Translations under genes and position numbers: made by a program
Assembly: GCA_003151815.1 (NCBI GenBank)
Contig: PLYN01000041.1
Coordinates: 9,919-73,918, forward strand
DNA: 64,000 nt
Reading direction: 5' to 3'
Source of the DNA: Bacteroidota bacterium
GTDB lineage: Bacteria > Bacteroidota > Bacteroidia > 2-12-FULL-35-15
The notes under the pieces: model-generated
Seen by the model: only the letters and a program-made list of their open reading frames with translations
Databases searched by the model: none
What the model was told of the DNA's origin: nothing
Part shown: positions 58,940-63,841 of the stretch, piece by piece
Position numbering within the stretch: the first letter of the stretch is position 1
Layout of the letters: the number at the start of each line of letters is the position of its first letter

Positions 58940-59176
58940 ATGACAAAAACAGCCATAAAAAAGGAATTACACAAAGCCATTGATATTGTTGAGAGCGAAC
59001 AACTATTAAAAGCTATCTATATGATTTTGAACGAAGAGCTAAAAAACACAAAGCAAGCAATTAAACCTTTTACTTTGGATGAGTTTTATGCCCGTAATAC
59101 TCAATCGCAAAAAGAAATCAAACAAGGCAAACTCATAGAGCATAAAAGTGTAAGAATAAAATACGGTACAAAATAA
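58940..59176 (+). CDS. Small hypothetical protein, antitoxin-like by size and gene overlap
   Basis: 78 aa, helical/charged. Its TAA overlaps the next ATG (TAATG), a typical toxin-antitoxin junction. No motif recognised. Confidence 0.45.
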   Translation: MTKTAIKKELHKAIDIVESEQLLKAIYMILNEELKNTKQAIKPFTLDEFYARNTQSQKEIKQGKLIEHKSVRIKYGTK

Positions 59177-59385
59177 TGAAGAAGGTAAAAATATATGTAA
59201 CTACAAACATATTAGGCATAAGGCGGCTGAAAGAAAAATACTCATATATAAAGCCGACTGTCTTTTCAACATTTGACTATTTAGCTCAAATTAGCTTCTT
59301 TTTTCTCCACTCAAAATTGTATATTTGGTCGATTAAAAAAAATGGAAAGAGAACGGGCGAAAGTCATTATACAGAATTTAGTTGA
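59176..59385 (+). pseudogene. Possible relic of a truncated toxin gene (or a non-coding ORF)
   Basis: 69-aa ORF with a protein-unlike sequence after the first ~10 codons. It contains the candidate promoter of the RM gene and overlaps the RM start by 44 nt. Confidence 0.25.
59320..59327 (+). promoter_or_regulatory. Candidate -7 box TATATTTG for the type IIG RM operon
   Basis: TAnnTTTG match 14 nt upstream of the ATG at 59342, followed by an A8 tract. Confidence 0.5.
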
Positions 59386-62179
59386 TCGCTTTGCGGAACA
59401 CCGCAAGGATTATCATTTGCCCGAATATAATGAGCAAAAGACAAGACAAGATTTTATAAATCCTTTTTTTAAAGCACTTGGTTGGGACATCGACAATGAA
59501 AAAGGAGCATCCGAAGCATATCGTGAAGTAATATACGAAGACAAAGTTATCGTTCGTGGAAAATCAAAAGCGCCTGATTATGGTTTTCGTTTGTCGGGGA
59601 GCGCAAAGAAAAGATTATTTTTTGTAGAAGCGAAAAAACCTTCCGTTCCTCTTAAAACCAATAGAGAAGCCGCATACCAATTAAGACGCTATGGAAGTAG
59701 CGCACAAGCGTTTGTTTCTATCCTCACGAATTTCGAAGACTTTATTATTTACGACTGTACAAAAGTTCCTAATCTGAATGATAGTACAACCGTTGCGCGT
59801 TTGAAACATATTTCTTTTGAAGATTACATAAAGGAATTTGATTTTATTTACGACACTTTTTCACACGAAGGAGTTACCAAAGGGCGTTTCGACAATTTTG
59901 TTAAAAGTATAGCAACAAAAAAAGGAACGGACACCCTTGATAAACGTTTCGTTAAAAGCCTTGATGAATGGCGATTGTATCTTGCAAAAAGTATTGCATA
60001 TAACAACAGAAAAATAAATGATGAAGAATTAAACTTTGCGGTTCAACAAACAATCGACCGCTTAATTTTTCTACGCTTTTGTGAAGACCGCGCAGTAGAA
60101 CCCGAAAATCAATTACAAAAAGCTGTTTCAAAAGGCGATTCATATAAAAACCTAATCGACCTTTTTAAACAAGCCGATGATAAATACAATTCCGGACTAT
60201 TCGATTTTGAGAAAGATGTAATCACACCAAATCTTAAAATTGACAGCAAGGTTTTAAAAATTGTTATCAATGAACTCTATTACCCACTTTGCAATTTCGA
60301 TTTCCGTGTTATGCCCGTGGAAGTGCTGGGCAATGCGTATGAGCAGTTTCTTGGAAAAGTAATACGAATTACGCCTGCACGAAGTGTAAAAATTGAAGAG
60401 AAACCCGAAGTCCGTAAAGCAGGTGGAGTATTTTATACACCTCAATATATTGTTGAATACATTGTAAAAAATACAGTTGGTAAACTCATTGATGGAAAAA
60501 CTCCAAAAGAAATTGAAACGATAACAATCGTTGATCCCGCTTGCGGAAGCGGTTCGTTTTTGGTAGGCGCATTTGAATATATACTTAATCATCATATCAA
60601 CTGGTATCACCAAAAAGGATATGCTACAAAAAAGGGCAAAGACAATCCATTCACGCCACAAGGCACATTAACAACACACGAAAAAAAACGCATCTTAACC
60701 AATAATATTTTTGGTGTTGATTTGGATTCCAACGCCGTTGAAGTAACAAAATTAAGTTTGCTTTTAAAATGTATGGAAGGCGAAACAGAAGCATCTATCA
60801 AACAACAAATAAGCTTATTTCACGAAAGAGTTTTACCTAATCTTGACGATAATATAAAAAGCGGCAACAGTTTAATTGACACTGATATTTATGATAGCGA
60901 CATTGATTTAGGTTATGAGCAAAAAATAAAACCTTTCTCTTGGAAAAAAGGATTTCCACAAGTATTTAAACAAGGAGGATTTGATGTTGTAATTGGAAAT
61001 CCGCCTTATGGTGCAGCATTTTCAAAAGATGAAACGAAATATTTTATAGAGCGATACAAACTCCAAAATTACCAACTTGATAGTTATTTTCTTTTCATTG
61101 AAAAATCACTTAATATTTTACAACCTAAAGCACTATTAGGCTTTATCATTCCAAACACTTGGTTATTAAATTTAAAAACAGCAAAAATCCGACAATACCT
61201 TTTTTCAAAAACTGAAATTATAAATATTGTTCATTACCAAAATCCAGTTTTTGAACAAGCTGTTGTTGACACAGAAATAATGATATTCAGAAATACTTCT
61301 CCAAACAAAACACACAATATTGAAGTTGAAATATTTGATAAGAAAAATGAAAAAAGTGAAAGAAAAATAAGACAACAAAATTGGATTGATGCAAATGGTG
61401 AATCCGTAAATATTCTTGATACTGAAAAAACCCGTTCAATAAAAAGCAAATTTTCTAAACTCCCTATATTAGATGTTCTCTGCAAAATAACACAGGGAAC
61501 TAAACCATTTCAAGTTGGAAAGGGAATTCCTAAACAGACACAAAAAATTGTTGATGACAAAACTTTTGTTTCAGAAAAAAAAATTGACAAATTTTTCAAA
61601 CCTCTTTTGCGAGGAAGTTTAATGAATCGTTATCGAATAAATTGGAATAATAATTACTATATAAAGTTTGGAGATTGGCTTGCCGAACCACGTTATTCTG
61701 CGAATTATGATGCAGAAGAAAAAATAATTATTAGACAAACAGGAGACCATCTGAATGCAACTCTTGATACAAAACAATTTATTGTTCGGGATAATCTTTA
61801 TACAATTACTTCTACTGATAAAGAAATTAATTTGCGTTACATTCTTGGTTTAATAAATTCTAAATTTTTTAATTGGTACTATCAAAATATTATCAATCCT
61901 GAAAAGGGGGAAGCCCTTGCTCAGGTAAAACGTGGGCATATAGCACAACTGCCAATCAAAATAACTGCTAAAAAGGAAATAACCGTTCAATCCGAGATTA
62001 TAAAACACGTTGATTTACTTTTAAAATTGAACGAAGAAATAAAAGAAGAAAAACTTCAAACTAAAGTTGATCAAATAAAACAACGCATTGAACATAGCGA
62101 AGAAAAAATAAATCAACTGGTTTATGAGTTGTATGAGTTAACACCGGAGGAAATTAAAATTGTGGAGGGGGAAAATTAA
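59342..62179 (+). CDS. Type IIG restriction-modification enzyme (fused PD-(D/E)xK nuclease + gamma-class N6-adenine methyltransferase + TaqI-like specificity domain; Eco57I-like family)
   Basis: 945 aa. N-terminal FINPFFKALGWD...KAPDYGFRL...FFVEAKKPS (D...E-x-K nuclease). Methyltransferase motif I VDPACGSGSFLVGA and motif IV VVIGNPPYGAAF. C-terminal ...YILGLINSKFFNWYYQ is typical of the TaqI-like TRD. Confidence 0.85.
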   Translation: MERERAKVIIQNLVDRFAEHRKDYHLPEYNEQKTRQDFINPFFKALGWDIDNEKGASEAYREVIYEDKVIVRGKSKAPDYGFRLSGSAKKRLFFVEAKKPSVPLKTNREAAYQLRRYGSSAQAFVSILTNFEDFIIYDCTKVPNLNDSTTVARLKHISFEDYIKEFDFIYDTFSHEGVTKGRFDNFVKSIATKKGTDTLDKRFVKSLDEWRLYLAKSIAYNNRKINDEELNFAVQQTIDRLIFLRFCEDRAVEPENQLQKAVSKGDSYKNLIDLFKQADDKYNSGLFDFEKDVITPNLKIDSKVLKIVINELYYPLCNFDFRVMPVEVLGNAYEQFLGKVIRITPARSVKIEEKPEVRKAGGVFYTPQYIVEYIVKNTVGKLIDGKTPKEIETITIVDPACGSGSFLVGAFEYILNHHINWYHQKGYATKKGKDNPFTPQGTLTTHEKKRILTNNIFGVDLDSNAVEVTKLSLLLKCMEGETEASIKQQISLFHERVLPNLDDNIKSGNSLIDTDIYDSDIDLGYEQKIKPFSWKKGFPQVFKQGGFDVVIGNPPYGAAFSKDETKYFIERYKLQNYQLDSYFLFIEKSLNILQPKALLGFIIPNTWLLNLKTAKIRQYLFSKTEIINIVHYQNPVFEQAVVDTEIMIFRNTSPNKTHNIEVEIFDKKNEKSERKIRQQNWIDANGESVNILDTEKTRSIKSKFSKLPILDVLCKITQGTKPFQVGKGIPKQTQKIVDDKTFVSEKKIDKFFKPLLRGSLMNRYRINWNNNYYIKFGDWLAEPRYSANYDAEEKIIIRQTGDHLNATLDTKQFIVRDNLYTITSTDKEINLRYILGLINSKFFNWYYQNIINPEKGEALAQVKRGHIAQLPIKITAKKEITVQSEIIKHVDLLLKLNEEIKEEKLQTKVDQIKQRIEHSEEKINQLVYELYELTPEEIKIVEGEN

Positions 62180-63454
62180 GTGATGGATGGATTAACAATC
62201 AACCCTTGGGACGAACATAATATGAAACGTTTAAAAGCTATTTCAGAAATAGACAAAGGAATAGATGAAATTTTAAAAATCGAAAACTTGGATATAATTA
62301 GTTATGAAGATTTGACTGCTCTTTTTTTTAATCTTTTCGAGATGTTTCCAATGAATACTATTTCTTTAAAAAAAGAATTTTACAAAGATTTTAAAGTGTA
62401 TCGTGTAAGACCATTTGATGAAGAATTTGAAATTACTAATCCGAATATTTTTAGTTGTCCTCCTTGGAATGAGGATATAGGTATTGGCAGAGCGAATTGG
62501 AGAAAGAGAAATGTATTGTATGGAAGTGATTCGCCTCATACCGCTTTAAAAGAAATTAAAGAAACTTCTGTAGGAAAAGATTTCTATATTTCAAAATGGG
62601 GAATTGATTATAGTAAACTTAATGTGGATAAAATTAATATAGCAACATTACTATTTAAAAATATTCCAGAAAATAATAATTGGGACTTATGGAATGAAGA
62701 CTATAATAAAACCATTAAAGAATTAAACTCACAAATTGGAATTGAGGCAAGTGAAAAGTTAATTCATTTACATAAAAAAATCAACAATTTGTTTGTTGAA
62801 AAAGATAAGAATAAATATCCAATCACGGCATTTATAGCAGACCAAATAATTTATTTTAAAAAAAATACTTCCGAAGAAATCTATTTTCCTATACTTATTT
62901 ATCCAAGTGTAGAATCAGAAAATAAAACTGTCAATTTTGCAATACATCCATTCTTTACAGAGAAATATATGCGTCTTGAAAAAGTAATTCATATAAAATT
63001 GAATGAGAAATATCCCAATCATTTTAAAGTTGGTTTTGAAAAAATTGGGTTTTGCAATAAAGAAAACATTGTGGAATGGTATACGTTTTCTCCTGATTTT
63101 TCAAAGACTTTATATGATATTAAATCCTTAAATTGCAATTCATGTGGAAAGAAAATCGACTTGAATGATATTGATAAAATCATTTTTAAAAAAGATAATA
63201 AAGCAATAACTCACGGTGAAATTATTGCAAACTACTTTAAAGAGCAAGATTATTCTGACTTTTATAATCTCGATGATATTGACATTATGAATGATGATGG
63301 AATAGCTGTAGGAATGGATTTGAAATTCTCTGCTATTCCATTAAAAAATATTGTGGCAACGGTGAAAGACGAAGATCATACAAATTTAACTATGGATATA
63401 AATGTTAAACAACCTTATCTATATAAAAATTTCCAAAAAACATCAATAAGCTAA
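62180..63454 (+). CDS. RES-domain-like protein with an uncharacterised ~160-aa C-terminal extension
   Basis: 424 aa. The GTG at 62180 abuts the RM stop (an ATG follows at 62183). YRVRP...GIGRANWRKRNVLYGSDSPHTALKEI (R104, Y114, E125) and ILIYPSVESENKTVNFAIHP (S243) follow the R-E-S / GRxN..vlY..s...A..E / vPS.....N.v..P pattern of RES domains. Judged by eye only. Confidence 0.6.
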   Translation: MMDGLTINPWDEHNMKRLKAISEIDKGIDEILKIENLDIISYEDLTALFFNLFEMFPMNTISLKKEFYKDFKVYRVRPFDEEFEITNPNIFSCPPWNEDIGIGRANWRKRNVLYGSDSPHTALKEIKETSVGKDFYISKWGIDYSKLNVDKINIATLLFKNIPENNNWDLWNEDYNKTIKELNSQIGIEASEKLIHLHKKINNLFVEKDKNKYPITAFIADQIIYFKKNTSEEIYFPILIYPSVESENKTVNFAIHPFFTEKYMRLEKVIHIKLNEKYPNHFKVGFEKIGFCNKENIVEWYTFSPDFSKTLYDIKSLNCNSCGKKIDLNDIDKIIFKKDNKAITHGEIIANYFKEQDYSDFYNLDDIDIMNDDGIAVGMDLKFSAIPLKNIVATVKDEDHTNLTMDINVKQPYLYKNFQKTSIS

Positions 63455-63841
63455 ATGAGCATAGCACTCCGCATAAAAGATTGTATTGACAACCATGATA
63501 AGTATGTTGCCATTATGGCTACAATGCCTGATAAAAAATTATCAGAAAAATTGGATGTAATTAATATGCAAGCGATAATTGCAGAGAAAACTAAAAATAC
63601 CGGTTCATTGGAATTGCTTGAAGTTTGGTGGCGACAAGTAGTTGAAGCCCGCATTTATAAAGCGGAAAATAAAATTCCCGATGCGCCAAATGAAATTGAA
63701 GAAGCCATTAAGGACATAGAAACTTTTGTAAGCAAAACGGAAGAACGTCAGGAAATATTAACTGAGTTTAACAATCCTGTAAAACAATCTCTCCCAAAAG
63801 TTCAGCAACAAAAGGATGATAGCCAATTATCTTTGTTTTAA
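63455..63841 (+). CDS. Hypothetical 128-aa protein, third gene of the RM/RES operon
   Basis: The ATG directly abuts the RES-gene TAA (63452-63454). Predicted helical with an acidic/Gln-rich tail. No motif recognised. Confidence 0.6.
   Translation: MSIALRIKDCIDNHDKYVAIMATMPDKKLSEKLDVINMQAIIAEKTKNTGSLELLEVWWRQVVEARIYKAENKIPDAPNEIEEAIKDIETFVSKTEERQEILTEFNNPVKQSLPKVQQQKDDSQLSLF

What the first reader, a model, noticed from the sequence alone, without database searches (positions are those of the whole stretch)
62180..63454. Atypically long RES-like protein with a large insertion in the domain and an unassigned C-terminal half
Residues ~74-125 (YRVRPFD...GIGRANWRKRNVLYGSDSPHTALKEI) and ~236-258 (FPILIYPSVESENKTVNFAIHPF) resemble the N- and C-terminal conserved blocks of RES domains. 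They are separated by ~110 residues (aa 130-235), which is longer than I expect for the family.

Residues ~265-424 have no recognisable motif apart from a lone C-x2-C (CNSCGKK, aa 319-322) and an acidic stretch.

The extra regions could be sensor or partner-binding modules, for example for the RM enzyme or a phage protein.
Basis: partly seen in the sequence, partly recalled or inferred. Interest (0 to 1): 0.68.

Follow-up and report, generated by a model that had tools for sequence, protein, structure and literature searches.

The report
RM-linked standalone RES NAD+-degrading defence protein
This is a real gene for a long, antitoxin-less RES-type NAD+-degrading enzyme placed directly behind a restriction-modification gene, most likely a back-up "suicide" anti-phage effector related to, but built differently from, the recently described aRES proteins.

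Summary
The ORF is real. It is 424 aa from the GTG at 62180, and more likely 423 aa from the ATG at 62183. It contains a genuine RES domain: Pfam RES scores just above the curated cut-off, the best PDB fold match is the P. putida Res toxin, and every catalytic residue known from MbcT is conserved across 136 diverse relatives (R75, R104, Y114 and E125 in 136/136; S243 in 131/136).

The "insertion" exists but is about 45-60 residues relative to TA-type RES toxins, not 110. It is a clade trait shared with aRES, the standalone anti-phage RES NAD+ phosphorylase (Osterman et al. 2026). Profile-profile comparison gives 97.9% probability (E 4.7e-13), restricted to the RES core.

The protein lacks the PF18870 N-terminal domain that defines aRES. 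It has about 58 N-terminal helical residues and a roughly 160-aa beta-rich C-terminal domain with no Pfam, PDB or aRES counterpart. The CxxC is not conserved.

In 7 of 14 resolvable loci, relatives sit 0-47 bp downstream of RM genes of at least four lineages (type IIG, two type I, type IIP). The other loci are mobile-element cargo. No Xre antitoxin is present.

Best reading: an RM-operon-linked abortive-infection NADase, a new variant of a known kind. Trigger and sensing mechanism are inferred, not shown.

The parts
62180..63454 (+). RES-like gene (424 aa from GTG 62180; probable true start ATG 62183, 423 aa; stop TAA 63452-63454)
   Evidence: ORF listing. The exact 423-aa product is a called gene in NCBI/ENA. 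Homologues begin at the position aligned to M2. A GGAGG-like motif lies about 10 nt upstream.
62180..62353 (+). N-terminal helical region, aa 1-58 (three helices), family-specific
   Evidence: AF2 secondary structure H12-17, H21-33, H42-53. Relatives align from profile position ~7. No similarity to the aRES PF18870 N-terminal domain (hhalign probability 0.3%). No PF18870 hit.
62354..62968 (+). RES catalytic domain, aa ~59-263. Catalytic codons: R75 62402-62404, R104 62489-62491, Y114 62519-62521, E125 62552-62554, S243 62906-62908, N252 62933-62935
   Evidence: Pfam RES. Foldseek top PDB hit is 9r35_A, the P. putida Res toxin: probability 0.97, TM 0.59 normalised by target length. hhalign to the aRES family 97.9%, E 4.7e-13, over aa 60-255. 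Residue conservation. Residue order and spacing match MbcT R27/R47/Y58/E69/S126.
62672..62806 (+). Helical insertion within the RES domain, aa ~165-209 (two helices), followed by the conserved helix aa 210-224
   Evidence: AF2 helices H170-186, H188-206, H210-224. E->S spacing is 118 residues versus 57 in MbcT and 98 in aRES. The insertion region aligns with aRES.
62969..63451 (+). C-terminal beta-rich domain, aa ~264-424, unassigned. The first ~50 aa are shared by all family members; the last ~100 aa occur only in 'long' forms
   Evidence: AF2 models. No PDB fold match. No family hit. Tail lengths are bimodal, 40-80 versus 140-180 aa, and 53 of 66 long tails fall in one BLAST cluster. W300 is conserved in 130/136; the CxxC is not conserved.
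59342..62179 (+). Type IIG restriction-modification enzyme (945 aa). Its stop codon abuts the start of the RES-like gene
   Evidence: Pfam Eco57I, TaqI_C, N6_Mtase, MmeI_Mtase, HSDR_N. PADLOC REase_MTase_IIG E 2.8e-189. No terminator-like site between the genes. Homologous RM-RES pairs occur in L023 (62% identity), L012 (44%) and L025 (34%).
63455..63841 (+). 128-aa ORF of unknown function. Its start abuts the RES gene stop. Part of the closest type IIG cassette only
   Evidence: ORF listing. No family hit. 70.5% identical to the 129-aa ORF downstream of P0002 in L023/L024, and absent from all other RES loci.

Best explanation
The gene encodes a standalone RES-domain enzyme with no antitoxin. 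It belongs to the same RES sub-clade as the anti-phage aRES proteins.

**Shown**
- A RES fold with all catalytic residues conserved.
- An aRES-type helical insertion in the RES domain.
- No adjacent Xre antitoxin.
- Tight same-strand placement behind RM genes in this window and in many relatives.
- Low GC and a mobile-element or defence-island setting.

**Inferred**
- The protein is co-transcribed, and probably translationally coupled, with the type IIG RM gene.
- It is kept inactive in uninfected cells.
- When a phage escapes or disables restriction it is switched on and phosphorolyses NAD+ to nicotinamide plus ADP-ribose-1''-phosphate. This arrests the cell before phage release (abortive infection).
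- Autoinhibition and trigger recognition are assigned to the family-specific N-terminal helices and/or the C-terminal beta-rich domain. These would replace the PF18870 N-terminal domain of aRES.
For: - **RES identity:** Pfam RES above the gathering score, and 120/136 relatives hit RES. The only meaningful PDB fold match is the Res toxin 9r35_A.
- **Active site:** R75, R104, Y114 and E125 are invariant in 136/136 relatives; S243 is in 131/136 and N252 in 133/136. Their order and spacing match MbcT R27/R47/Y58/E69/S126. R27, R47 and Y58 are essential for MbcT toxicity; E69A kept limited toxin activity and S126 was not essential (PMC6436930).
- **Link to aRES:** hhalign of the family against the aRES family gives probability 97.9%, E 4.7e-13, over aa 60-255, including the insertion. 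aRES is experimentally anti-phage through NAD+ conversion to Nam plus ADPR-1''-P (bioRxiv 10.64898/2026.01.28.702374).
- **No antitoxin:** no HTH, Xre or DUF2384 neighbour. The downstream ORF is not conserved across loci.
- **RM linkage:** RM genes lie directly upstream on the same strand, 0-47 bp away, in 7 of 14 resolvable loci. The lineages are type IIG (four loci), type I (two loci, HsdM 26% identical to each other), and EcoRV-like plus Dam. The remaining loci are integrase, ICE or CBASS-adjacent islands.
- **Operon structure:** no terminator-like site between the RM and RES genes.
- **Foreign origin:** GC drops to ~27% against ~34% in the surrounding genome.
- **Host-encoded:** not found in phage genomes, viral contigs or plasmids.
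Against: - No activity, toxicity or phage data exist for this family.
- It lacks the PF18870 domain that defines aRES, so regulation may differ.
- aRES genes were described as not operonic, whereas this one is.
- RES domains can also act as protein ADP-ribosyltransferases (ParT; from my own knowledge). Sequence alone does not settle the reaction.
- Half of the resolvable loci have no RM neighbour, so RM coupling is frequent but not obligatory.
- PADLOC has no model that matches it.
- The sensor role of the C-terminal domain has no direct support. About half of the family lacks the last ~100 residues.
Confidence: 0.6

Rival explanations
1. The RES-like protein is the toxin of an addiction (toxin-antitoxin) module, and the abutting 128-aa ORF (63455-63841) is its antitoxin. 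The pair would stabilise the RM cassette or mobile element rather than sense phage.
For: Characterised RES proteins such as MbcT, Res and NatT are TA toxins. The 128-aa ORF starts immediately after the RES stop codon. It is 70.5% identical in the closest type IIG cassette, L023/L024, which is more conserved than the RES gene there (53%).
Against: RES antitoxins are upstream Xre/HTH proteins. This ORF is downstream and matches no HTH or other family. It is absent from every other RES locus, including the two other type IIG-linked loci L012 and L025 and both type I loci. In L023 a 70-aa ORF separates it from the RES gene. The RES core is closer to the antitoxin-less aRES family.
Confidence: 0.14
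2. The RES domain works as an ADP-ribosyltransferase on a macromolecule, as ParT does on Prs, rather than depleting NAD+ by phosphorolysis. The target would be a host or phage protein, or nucleic acid. The biological role could still be defence.
For: RES is a divergent ART-fold family (PMC9503650). The conserved residues bind NAD+ and do not by themselves determine the acceptor. The extra C-terminal domain could hold a target.
Against: The nearest characterised relatives by profile comparison are the aRES proteins. aRES and MbcT both produce ADPR-1''-P and are not reported to modify proteins. The R/Y/E/S/N set is the phosphorylase-type set.
Confidence: 0.12
3. It is a dedicated accessory subunit or guard of the RM enzyme. 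It binds the RM protein physically and fires when an anti-restriction protein inactivates that enzyme, in the manner of PrrC with EcoprrI.
For: The gene sits behind RM genes with 0-47 bp spacing in 7 of 14 loci. The type IIG-RES pair persists while the RM diverges to 34-62% identity. There is precedent for abortive-infection effectors inside RM operons (PMC3710099; PrrC from my own knowledge).
Against: The upstream RM enzymes are structurally unrelated: type IIG fusion, HsdR, and EcoRV-like REase plus Dam MTase. A conserved direct interface is therefore unlikely. Half of the loci have no RM. No co-varying partner was found.
Confidence: 0.1
4. It is a degenerate or inactive RES remnant, or a mis-called ORF with no function.
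For: The Pfam score is only marginally above the cut-off. One relative (L011) carries an in-frame stop codon.
Against: The catalytic residues are invariant across 136 relatives at 20-30% identity. The AF2 model is confident, pLDDT 80.5 and pTM 0.76. The family is large.
Confidence: 0.02

Closest known systems
aRES, the anti-phage standalone RES-domain NAD+ phosphorylase (Osterman et al., bioRxiv 10.64898/2026.01.28.702374, January 2026)
   Same: - Standalone RES protein of 300-600 aa with no antitoxin.
- Same RES sub-type, including the helical insertion and the Y-x-I-T-x-x-x-A-D helix (hhalign 97.9%, E 4.7e-13, aa 60-255 against aRES 171-352).
- Same conserved residues. The aligned aRES positions, read off the hhalign alignment and the A4 invariant columns rather than counted directly, are R182, R215, Y225, E236, S334 and N349.
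- Located in defence islands.
   Different: - No PF18870 HEPN/RES-NTD1 and no N-terminal zinc ribbon. Only ~58 residues precede the RES core, against ~170 in aRES.
- Has a ~160-aa beta-rich C-terminal domain unrelated to the aRES tail.
- Tightly linked to RM genes, whereas aRES was described as non-operonic.
- Whole-protein sequence similarity is marginal (BLASTP E 1e-4 over 87 aa).
RES-Xre type II toxin-antitoxin toxins (MbcT/MbcA, Res/Xre, NatT/NatR, ParT/ParS)
   Same: RES fold: the best PDB match is the P. putida Res toxin 9r35_A. The motif R...Y...E...S plus the upstream Arg is present, with the same R-Y-E spacing as MbcT.
   Different: - No Xre/DUF2384 antitoxin gene.
- 424 aa versus 186 aa for MbcT and 144 aa for the Res chain.
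- About 60 extra residues between E and S.
- Extra N- and C-terminal modules.
- A profile-to-sequence search does not reach the PDB RES toxins.
RM-embedded abortive-infection effectors (PrrC with EcoprrI, RloC; AbiJ and AbiA-CTD solos in RM operons; PMC3710099)
   Same: A toxic effector gene placed inside or directly behind RM operons of varied type. This suggests a second line of defence that acts when restriction fails.
   Different: The effector chemistry is unrelated: an NAD+-processing RES domain rather than an anticodon nuclease or HEPN RNase. There is no ABC ATPase. Physical coupling to the RM enzyme has not been shown and is unlikely to be general.

Membership tests
RES domain (Pfam PF08808; 'RES family NAD+ phosphorylase') | Match to the family HMM at or above the curated threshold | tested here: met
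   24.7 bits against a gathering score of 23.2, E 2.6e-5, aa 100-259. 120 of 136 relatives hit RES at E<=0.01, best 3e-11.
RES domain (Pfam PF08808; 'RES family NAD+ phosphorylase') | Conserved R-E-S motif plus the upstream Arg and the Tyr that are essential in MbcT | tested here: met
   R104, E125, R75 and Y114 are each in 136/136 relatives; S243 in 131/136; N252 in 133/136. The R-Y-E spacing of 10 and 11 residues matches 11 and 11 in MbcT.
RES domain (Pfam PF08808; 'RES family NAD+ phosphorylase') | ART-like RES fold | tested here: met
   AF2 model pLDDT 80.5. The top Foldseek PDB hit is the Res toxin 9r35_A: probability 0.97, TM 0.59 normalised by target length, E 0.04. The next hit is at probability 0.01.
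RES domain (Pfam PF08808; 'RES family NAD+ phosphorylase') | NAD+ phosphorolysis to nicotinamide plus ADPR-1''-phosphate | not testable with these tools
   Requires an enzyme assay or LC-MS.
RES-Xre type II toxin-antitoxin system | Cognate Xre/DUF2384 (HTH) antitoxin gene adjacent, normally upstream | tested here: not met
   The upstream gene is a type IIG RM enzyme. The downstream 128-aa ORF has no HTH or other family hit and is not conserved across loci.
RES-Xre type II toxin-antitoxin system | Small single-domain toxin (~150-190 aa) | tested here: not met
   424 aa with additional N- and C-terminal modules.
aRES (Osterman et al. 2026) | RES domain of the aRES type in a 300-600 aa protein with no antitoxin | tested here: met
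   hhalign of A2 against the aRES alignment A4: probability 97.9%, E 4.7e-13. Length 424 aa.
aRES (Osterman et al. 2026) | PF18870 HEPN/RES N-terminal domain 1 (required by the authors' detection pipeline) | tested here: not met
   No PF18870 hit at E<=1 in the query, and none in 136 relatives at E<=0.01. aRES P0160 does hit it. hhalign of the N-terminal regions gives probability 0.3%. Only ~58 residues precede the RES core, against a 131-position model.
aRES (Osterman et al. 2026) | Located in defence islands | tested here: met
   RM directly upstream in 7 of 14 loci. CBASS is nearby in L001. The other loci have integrase or ICE contexts.
aRES (Osterman et al. 2026) | Not operonically associated with other genes | tested here: not met
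   0-3 nt from the RM stop codon, with no terminator-like site in between. Relatives show 0-47 bp gaps or overlapping stop/start codons.
aRES (Osterman et al. 2026) | Phage protection with infection-dependent NAD+ depletion | not testable with these tools
   Experimental.
PrrC/RloC-type RM-linked anticodon nucleases | ABC-ATPase plus anticodon-nuclease domains | tested here: not met
   Pfam, NCBIfam and PADLOC scans find only RES. The resemblance is in gene placement only.

The most novel reading that the evidence does not exclude
The family is a modular 'restriction-failure' sensor-effector. It would be a RES NADase whose own novel beta-rich C-terminal domain and N-terminal helices detect a generic signature of escape from restriction, for example anti-restriction proteins or unrestricted replicating phage DNA. 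It would have been recruited repeatedly as the last gene of type I, type IIG and type IIP RM operons, forming a two-layer RM-plus-abortive-infection unit that differs in regulation from aRES.
Probability: 0.2. Interest if true: 0.7.

Novelty: new variant of a known kind. Interest (0 to 1): 0.5.

Why it matters
Standalone RES proteins were shown to be anti-phage NAD+ phosphorylases only in 2026, and that family is defined by the PF18870 N-terminal domain. This window carries a second, sizeable family with the same catalytic core but different flanking modules. It comprises at least 257 50%-identity clusters at E<=1e-30, no member seen here carries a functional name (they are unnamed or "hypothetical protein"), and the query matches no PADLOC or NCBIfam model.

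The family has a recurrent position as the terminal gene of RM operons of unrelated types. If it is active, three things follow:
- The set of NAD+-depleting immune effectors would grow.
- Defence-finder tools would gain a new model.
- There would be a tractable case for asking how restriction and abortive infection are coupled, and how a RES domain is held inactive without an antitoxin.

Tried and rejected
- **PDB sequence searches:** the single protein and the 136-sequence profile found no RES toxin, only chance hits. The link to solved RES structures therefore rests on Pfam, Foldseek and residue mapping.
- **C-terminal domain:** a domain-only AF2 model searched against PDB found nothing (best E 0.5). 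The full-length model against viral structures returned only uncharacterised giant-virus and jumbo-phage proteins with low TM scores. The CxxC as a zinc site is rejected because it is not conserved.
- **C-terminal profile search:** the A3 profile against the 5.8-billion-protein database returned nothing, not even the family itself. I treat this as a retrieval quirk, not as evidence.
- **Locus scans:** the genome-contig scan gave only 2 loci and the metagenome-contig scan 6. A2 was too diverse to search with. The context statistics therefore rest on 14 resolvable loci.
- **Conserved partner:** the downstream 128-aa ORF is rejected as a family-wide partner because it occurs only in L023/L024.
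- **Flanking modules versus aRES:** no homology between the N-terminal region or the C-terminal domain and the aRES N-terminal domain or tail (probabilities 0.3-0.7%).
- **Other collections:** no match in plasmids, phage genomes or viral contigs. No tRNA gene in the window to mark an integration site.
- **Source organism:** not determined. The proteins are unnamed in their source records.
Full report
**1. The observation**

The ORF at 62180..63454 (+) exists and encodes 424 aa from a GTG. The second codon is ATG (62183). Homologues start at the position aligned to it. The exact 423-aa product from that ATG is a called but unnamed gene on a 209,655-bp NCBI/ENA contig.

The stop codon of the preceding 945-aa gene (59342..62179) abuts the start, and a GGAGG-like motif lies about 10 nt upstream. 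The next ORF (63455..63841, 128 aa) starts on the base after the stop codon.

No terminator-like site was found on the + strand downstream of 60552, within or after the three genes. GC falls from about 34% in the flanking genome to about 27% in this gene.

**2. It is a RES domain with an intact active site**

- Pfam RES (PF08808) matches aa 100-259 at 24.7 bits, against a gathering score of 23.2. PADLOC, NCBIfam and PHROGs give nothing.
- A first search found only 13 relatives.
- A profile search of 1.84 billion cluster representatives found 1,932 at E<=1e-3, 719 at E<=1e-10 and 257 at E<=1e-30.
- Of 136 diverse relatives (20-30% identical to the query), 120 hit Pfam RES on their own.
- In that alignment R75, R104, Y114, E125, W140 and P242 are present in 136/136 sequences. 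S243 is in 131/136 and N252 in 133/136.
- In MbcT the RES motif is R47-E69-S126. R27, R47 and Y58 are essential for toxicity, whereas E69A kept limited toxin activity and S126 was not essential (PMC6436930). The spacing R27-20-R47-11-Y58-11-E69 compares with R75-29-R104-10-Y114-11-E125 here.
- An AF2 model built from 14 sequences is confident: pLDDT 80.5, pTM 0.76. Its only meaningful PDB match is the P. putida Res toxin 9r35_A, with probability 0.97, TM 0.59 normalised by target length, and E 0.04.
- HMM-to-sequence searches of PDB chains did not reach RES toxins. The domain is therefore divergent.

**3. The 'insertion'**

E125 to S243 is 118 residues, against 57 in MbcT. The Pfam match spans 160 residues over 117 model positions. 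The true excess is therefore about 45-60 residues, not about 110.

The model places three helices here: 170-186, 188-206 and 210-224. The last one (K-Y213-P-I-T-A-F-I-A-D) is highly conserved.

The feature is not peculiar to this protein. It is present across the whole family and in the aRES proteins (see section 4).

**4. Closest known relative: aRES**

A January 2026 preprint (bioRxiv 10.64898/2026.01.28.702374) describes aRES.
- They are standalone RES proteins in defence islands.
- They protect against phages by converting NAD+ to nicotinamide plus ADPR-1''-phosphate.
- They are found in about 4% of genomes overall and 4.7% of Bacteroidota.
- The authors' pipeline defines them by RES plus PF18870 in proteins of 300-600 aa.

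I took the E. coli UC5 aRES sequence from their Table S4 and collected its family. These proteins carry PF08808, many also carry PF18870, and several are named 'RES family NAD+ phosphorylase'. I then compared profiles.
- The query family against the aRES family gives 97.9% probability, E 4.7e-13, over query aa 60-255 and aRES 171-352 (93.7% against the single sequence).
- The aligned region includes the helical insertion.
- Reading the aligned aRES positions off the hhalign alignment and the invariant columns of A4, the correspondences appear to be R75/R182, R104/R215, Y114/Y225, E125/E236, Y213/Y309, S243/S334 and N252/N349. I did not count these directly.

Nothing outside the RES core aligns.
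- Query N-terminal region against the aRES N-terminal domain: probability 0.3%.
- Query C-terminal domain against the aRES tail: 0.6%.
- Query C-terminal domain against the aRES N-terminal domain: 0.4% (all).

PF18870 (131 model positions) is detected in aRES P0160. It is not detected in the query at E<=1, nor in any of 136 relatives. Only about 58 residues precede the RES core here. This protein therefore shares the aRES catalytic module but fails the feature that defines aRES.

**5. The flanking modules**

*N-terminus.* Three short helices (aa 12-53) are conserved across the family, since relatives align from profile position ~7.

*C-terminus.* From about aa 264 the model is beta-rich.
- Tail lengths after aa 262 are bimodal: 40-80 aa in 86 sequences and 140-180 aa in 63.
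- 53 of 66 long tails form one BLAST-linked cluster. The long tail is thus one diverged domain rather than a set of swapped sensors, and roughly half of the family lacks its last ~100 residues.
- The first ~50 residues are common to all members, and W300 is conserved in 130/136.
- A domain-only model (pLDDT 77.5) has no PDB match; best E 0.5, probability 0.06.
- The viral structure library gave only uncharacterised giant-virus and jumbo-phage proteins, aligned with low TM scores.
- C319 and C322 are kept in only 27 and 25 of 55 long forms. The CxxC is therefore not a conserved metal site.
- In one relative (L011) an in-frame TAA splits the gene into 280 + 123 aa near the domain boundary.

**6. 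Genomic context**

The upstream gene is a complete type IIG RM enzyme. It has HSDR_N, N6_Mtase/Eco57I/MmeI_Mtase and TaqI_C domains, and matches PADLOC REase_MTase_IIG at E 2.8e-189.

| Relative (locus) | Immediate upstream context |
|---|---|
| P0002 (L023/L024) | Type IIG RM, 62% identical to the window's; stop and start overlap |
| P0004 (L012) | Type IIG RM, 44% identical; 11 bp gap |
| P0003 (L025) | C-terminus of a type IIG RM, 34% identical |
| P0010 (L002/L003/L017) | hsdM-S-R type I system; ~12 bp gap |
| P0011 (L006-L008, L010, L016) | Different type I system (HsdM 26% identical), with a SLFN/AlbA ATPase gene inside; 47 bp gap |
| P0007 (no DNA held) | EcoRV-like REase plus Dam-type MTase; 30 bp gap |
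| P0001 (L001) | ICE-like region next to a CBASS operon |
| P0005 (L004/L005) | Integrase / AAA_25 island |
| L015 | HTH_17 + DUF3987 |
| L011 | Integrase nearby |
| P0006 (L014) | Small ORFs of unknown function |
| P0018 (L018/L019), P0030 (L020) | ORFs of unknown function |

Three further loci start at contig ends and cannot be resolved.

RM is therefore directly upstream and co-oriented in 7 of 14 resolvable loci, counting the window, and these involve at least four RM lineages. This is far above what a random gene would show. It is nevertheless a small sample and not a formal test.

The 128-aa downstream ORF has a 70.5%-identical counterpart only in L023/L024. There a 70-aa ORF is interposed between it and the RES gene. 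It is absent from all other loci and matches no family. The family was not found in plasmid, phage-genome or viral-contig collections.

**7. Mechanism**

*Shown:* RES fold; invariant catalytic residues; aRES-type core; no Xre antitoxin; tight linkage to RM genes; a mobile-element or defence-island setting.

*Inferred:*
- The protein is expressed with the RM enzyme and held inactive.
- On a phage cue it destroys NAD+, most likely by phosphorolysis as in MbcT and aRES, giving abortive infection.
- The N-terminal helices and/or C-terminal domain would provide autoinhibition and trigger recognition in place of PF18870.

I put this at about 0.6 overall. The components are: RES enzyme ~0.9, defence role ~0.65, phosphorolysis ~0.6, C-terminal sensor role ~0.35.

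*Rivals:*
- A TA or addiction module with the 128-aa ORF as antitoxin (0.14).
- A ParT-like ADP-ribosyltransferase (0.12).
- A physical guard of the RM enzyme (0.10). The unrelated RM partners argue against this.
- A dead remnant (0.02).

**8. Novelty and verdict**

The insertion is smaller than stated and is shared with aRES. The C-terminal half remains unassigned.

The protein is neither a RES-Xre toxin nor, by the published definition, an aRES. It is a new architectural variant of the standalone RES defence effector. No member seen here has a functional name, and the query matches no current PADLOC or NCBIfam model. It recurs as the last gene of RM operons.

It is of moderate interest (0.5). 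It follows naturally from aRES and from earlier RM-linked abortive-infection effectors (PMC3710099). It also offers a concrete, testable case of coupling between restriction and abortive infection, and of antitoxin-free control of a RES domain.

Noticed in passing
L001 6976-7512 (-), L004 10212-10706 (+), L002 9469-9846 (+): Small DnaJ (J-domain) proteins lie within ~1 kb of the RES-like gene in three independent locus groups. L001 and L004 are 46% identical; L002 and L004 are 28% identical. They may be mobile-element backbone genes or a recurrent neighbour. The window ends 546 bp after the RES gene, so whether one follows here cannot be seen.
   Followed up: partly
L011 7823-7828: In a Crocinitomicaceae MAG the RES-like gene is interrupted by an in-frame TAA followed immediately by ATG. 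This gives 280-aa and 123-aa ORFs split near the boundary of the C-terminal extension. It could be a nonsense mutation, a sequencing error or a natural split.
   Followed up: partly
window 63455-63841; L023 5361-5573 and 5574-5963: The 128-aa ORF abutting the RES gene is 70.5% identical to a 129-aa ORF in the closest type IIG cassette. That is more conserved than the RES (53%) and RM (62%) genes there. In L023 an extra 70-aa ORF sits between the RES gene and it. Function is unknown and no family matches.
   Followed up: partly
window 58940-59176 and 59176-59385: Two small ORFs (78 and 69 aa) lie just upstream of the type IIG gene, and the second overlaps its start. Neither matches a family. 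From my own reading, not tested, the 78-aa product looks like a small Bacteroidota antitoxin-type protein.
   Followed up: no
L006 2809-4446: A SLFN/AlbA_2 + HATPase_c_4 gene is inserted between hsdS and hsdR of the type I system that precedes RES relative P0011. This is another accessory gene embedded in an RM operon.
   Followed up: no
L001 1-3631: A complete CBASS operon (SMODS, bacterial HORMA, AAA/TRIP13-like, SAVED effector) lies ~4 kb from RES relative P0001. It sits next to T4SS coupling-protein and leading-region-type genes (DUF3846, KlcB), so this is a defence cluster on a conjugative element.
   Followed up: no
P0101 (976 aa): One relative carries the whole RES-like module at residues 11-398, followed by ~580 further residues with no Pfam hit. 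This may be a fusion to another module.
   Followed up: no
window 61500-63500: GC content falls to 26.5-30% across the 3' end of the RM gene and the RES gene, against ~34% in the flanking housekeeping genes. This is consistent with horizontal acquisition of the cassette. No tRNA gene occurs in the window; integrases were not looked for.
   Followed up: partly
database behaviour: The window's own protein was not returned by the homologue search. Its 90% cluster is represented by a 53-aa fragment, which may be why. The C-terminal-domain profile search also returned nothing, not even known family members. Absence in those searches should not be read as rarity.
   Followed up: partly
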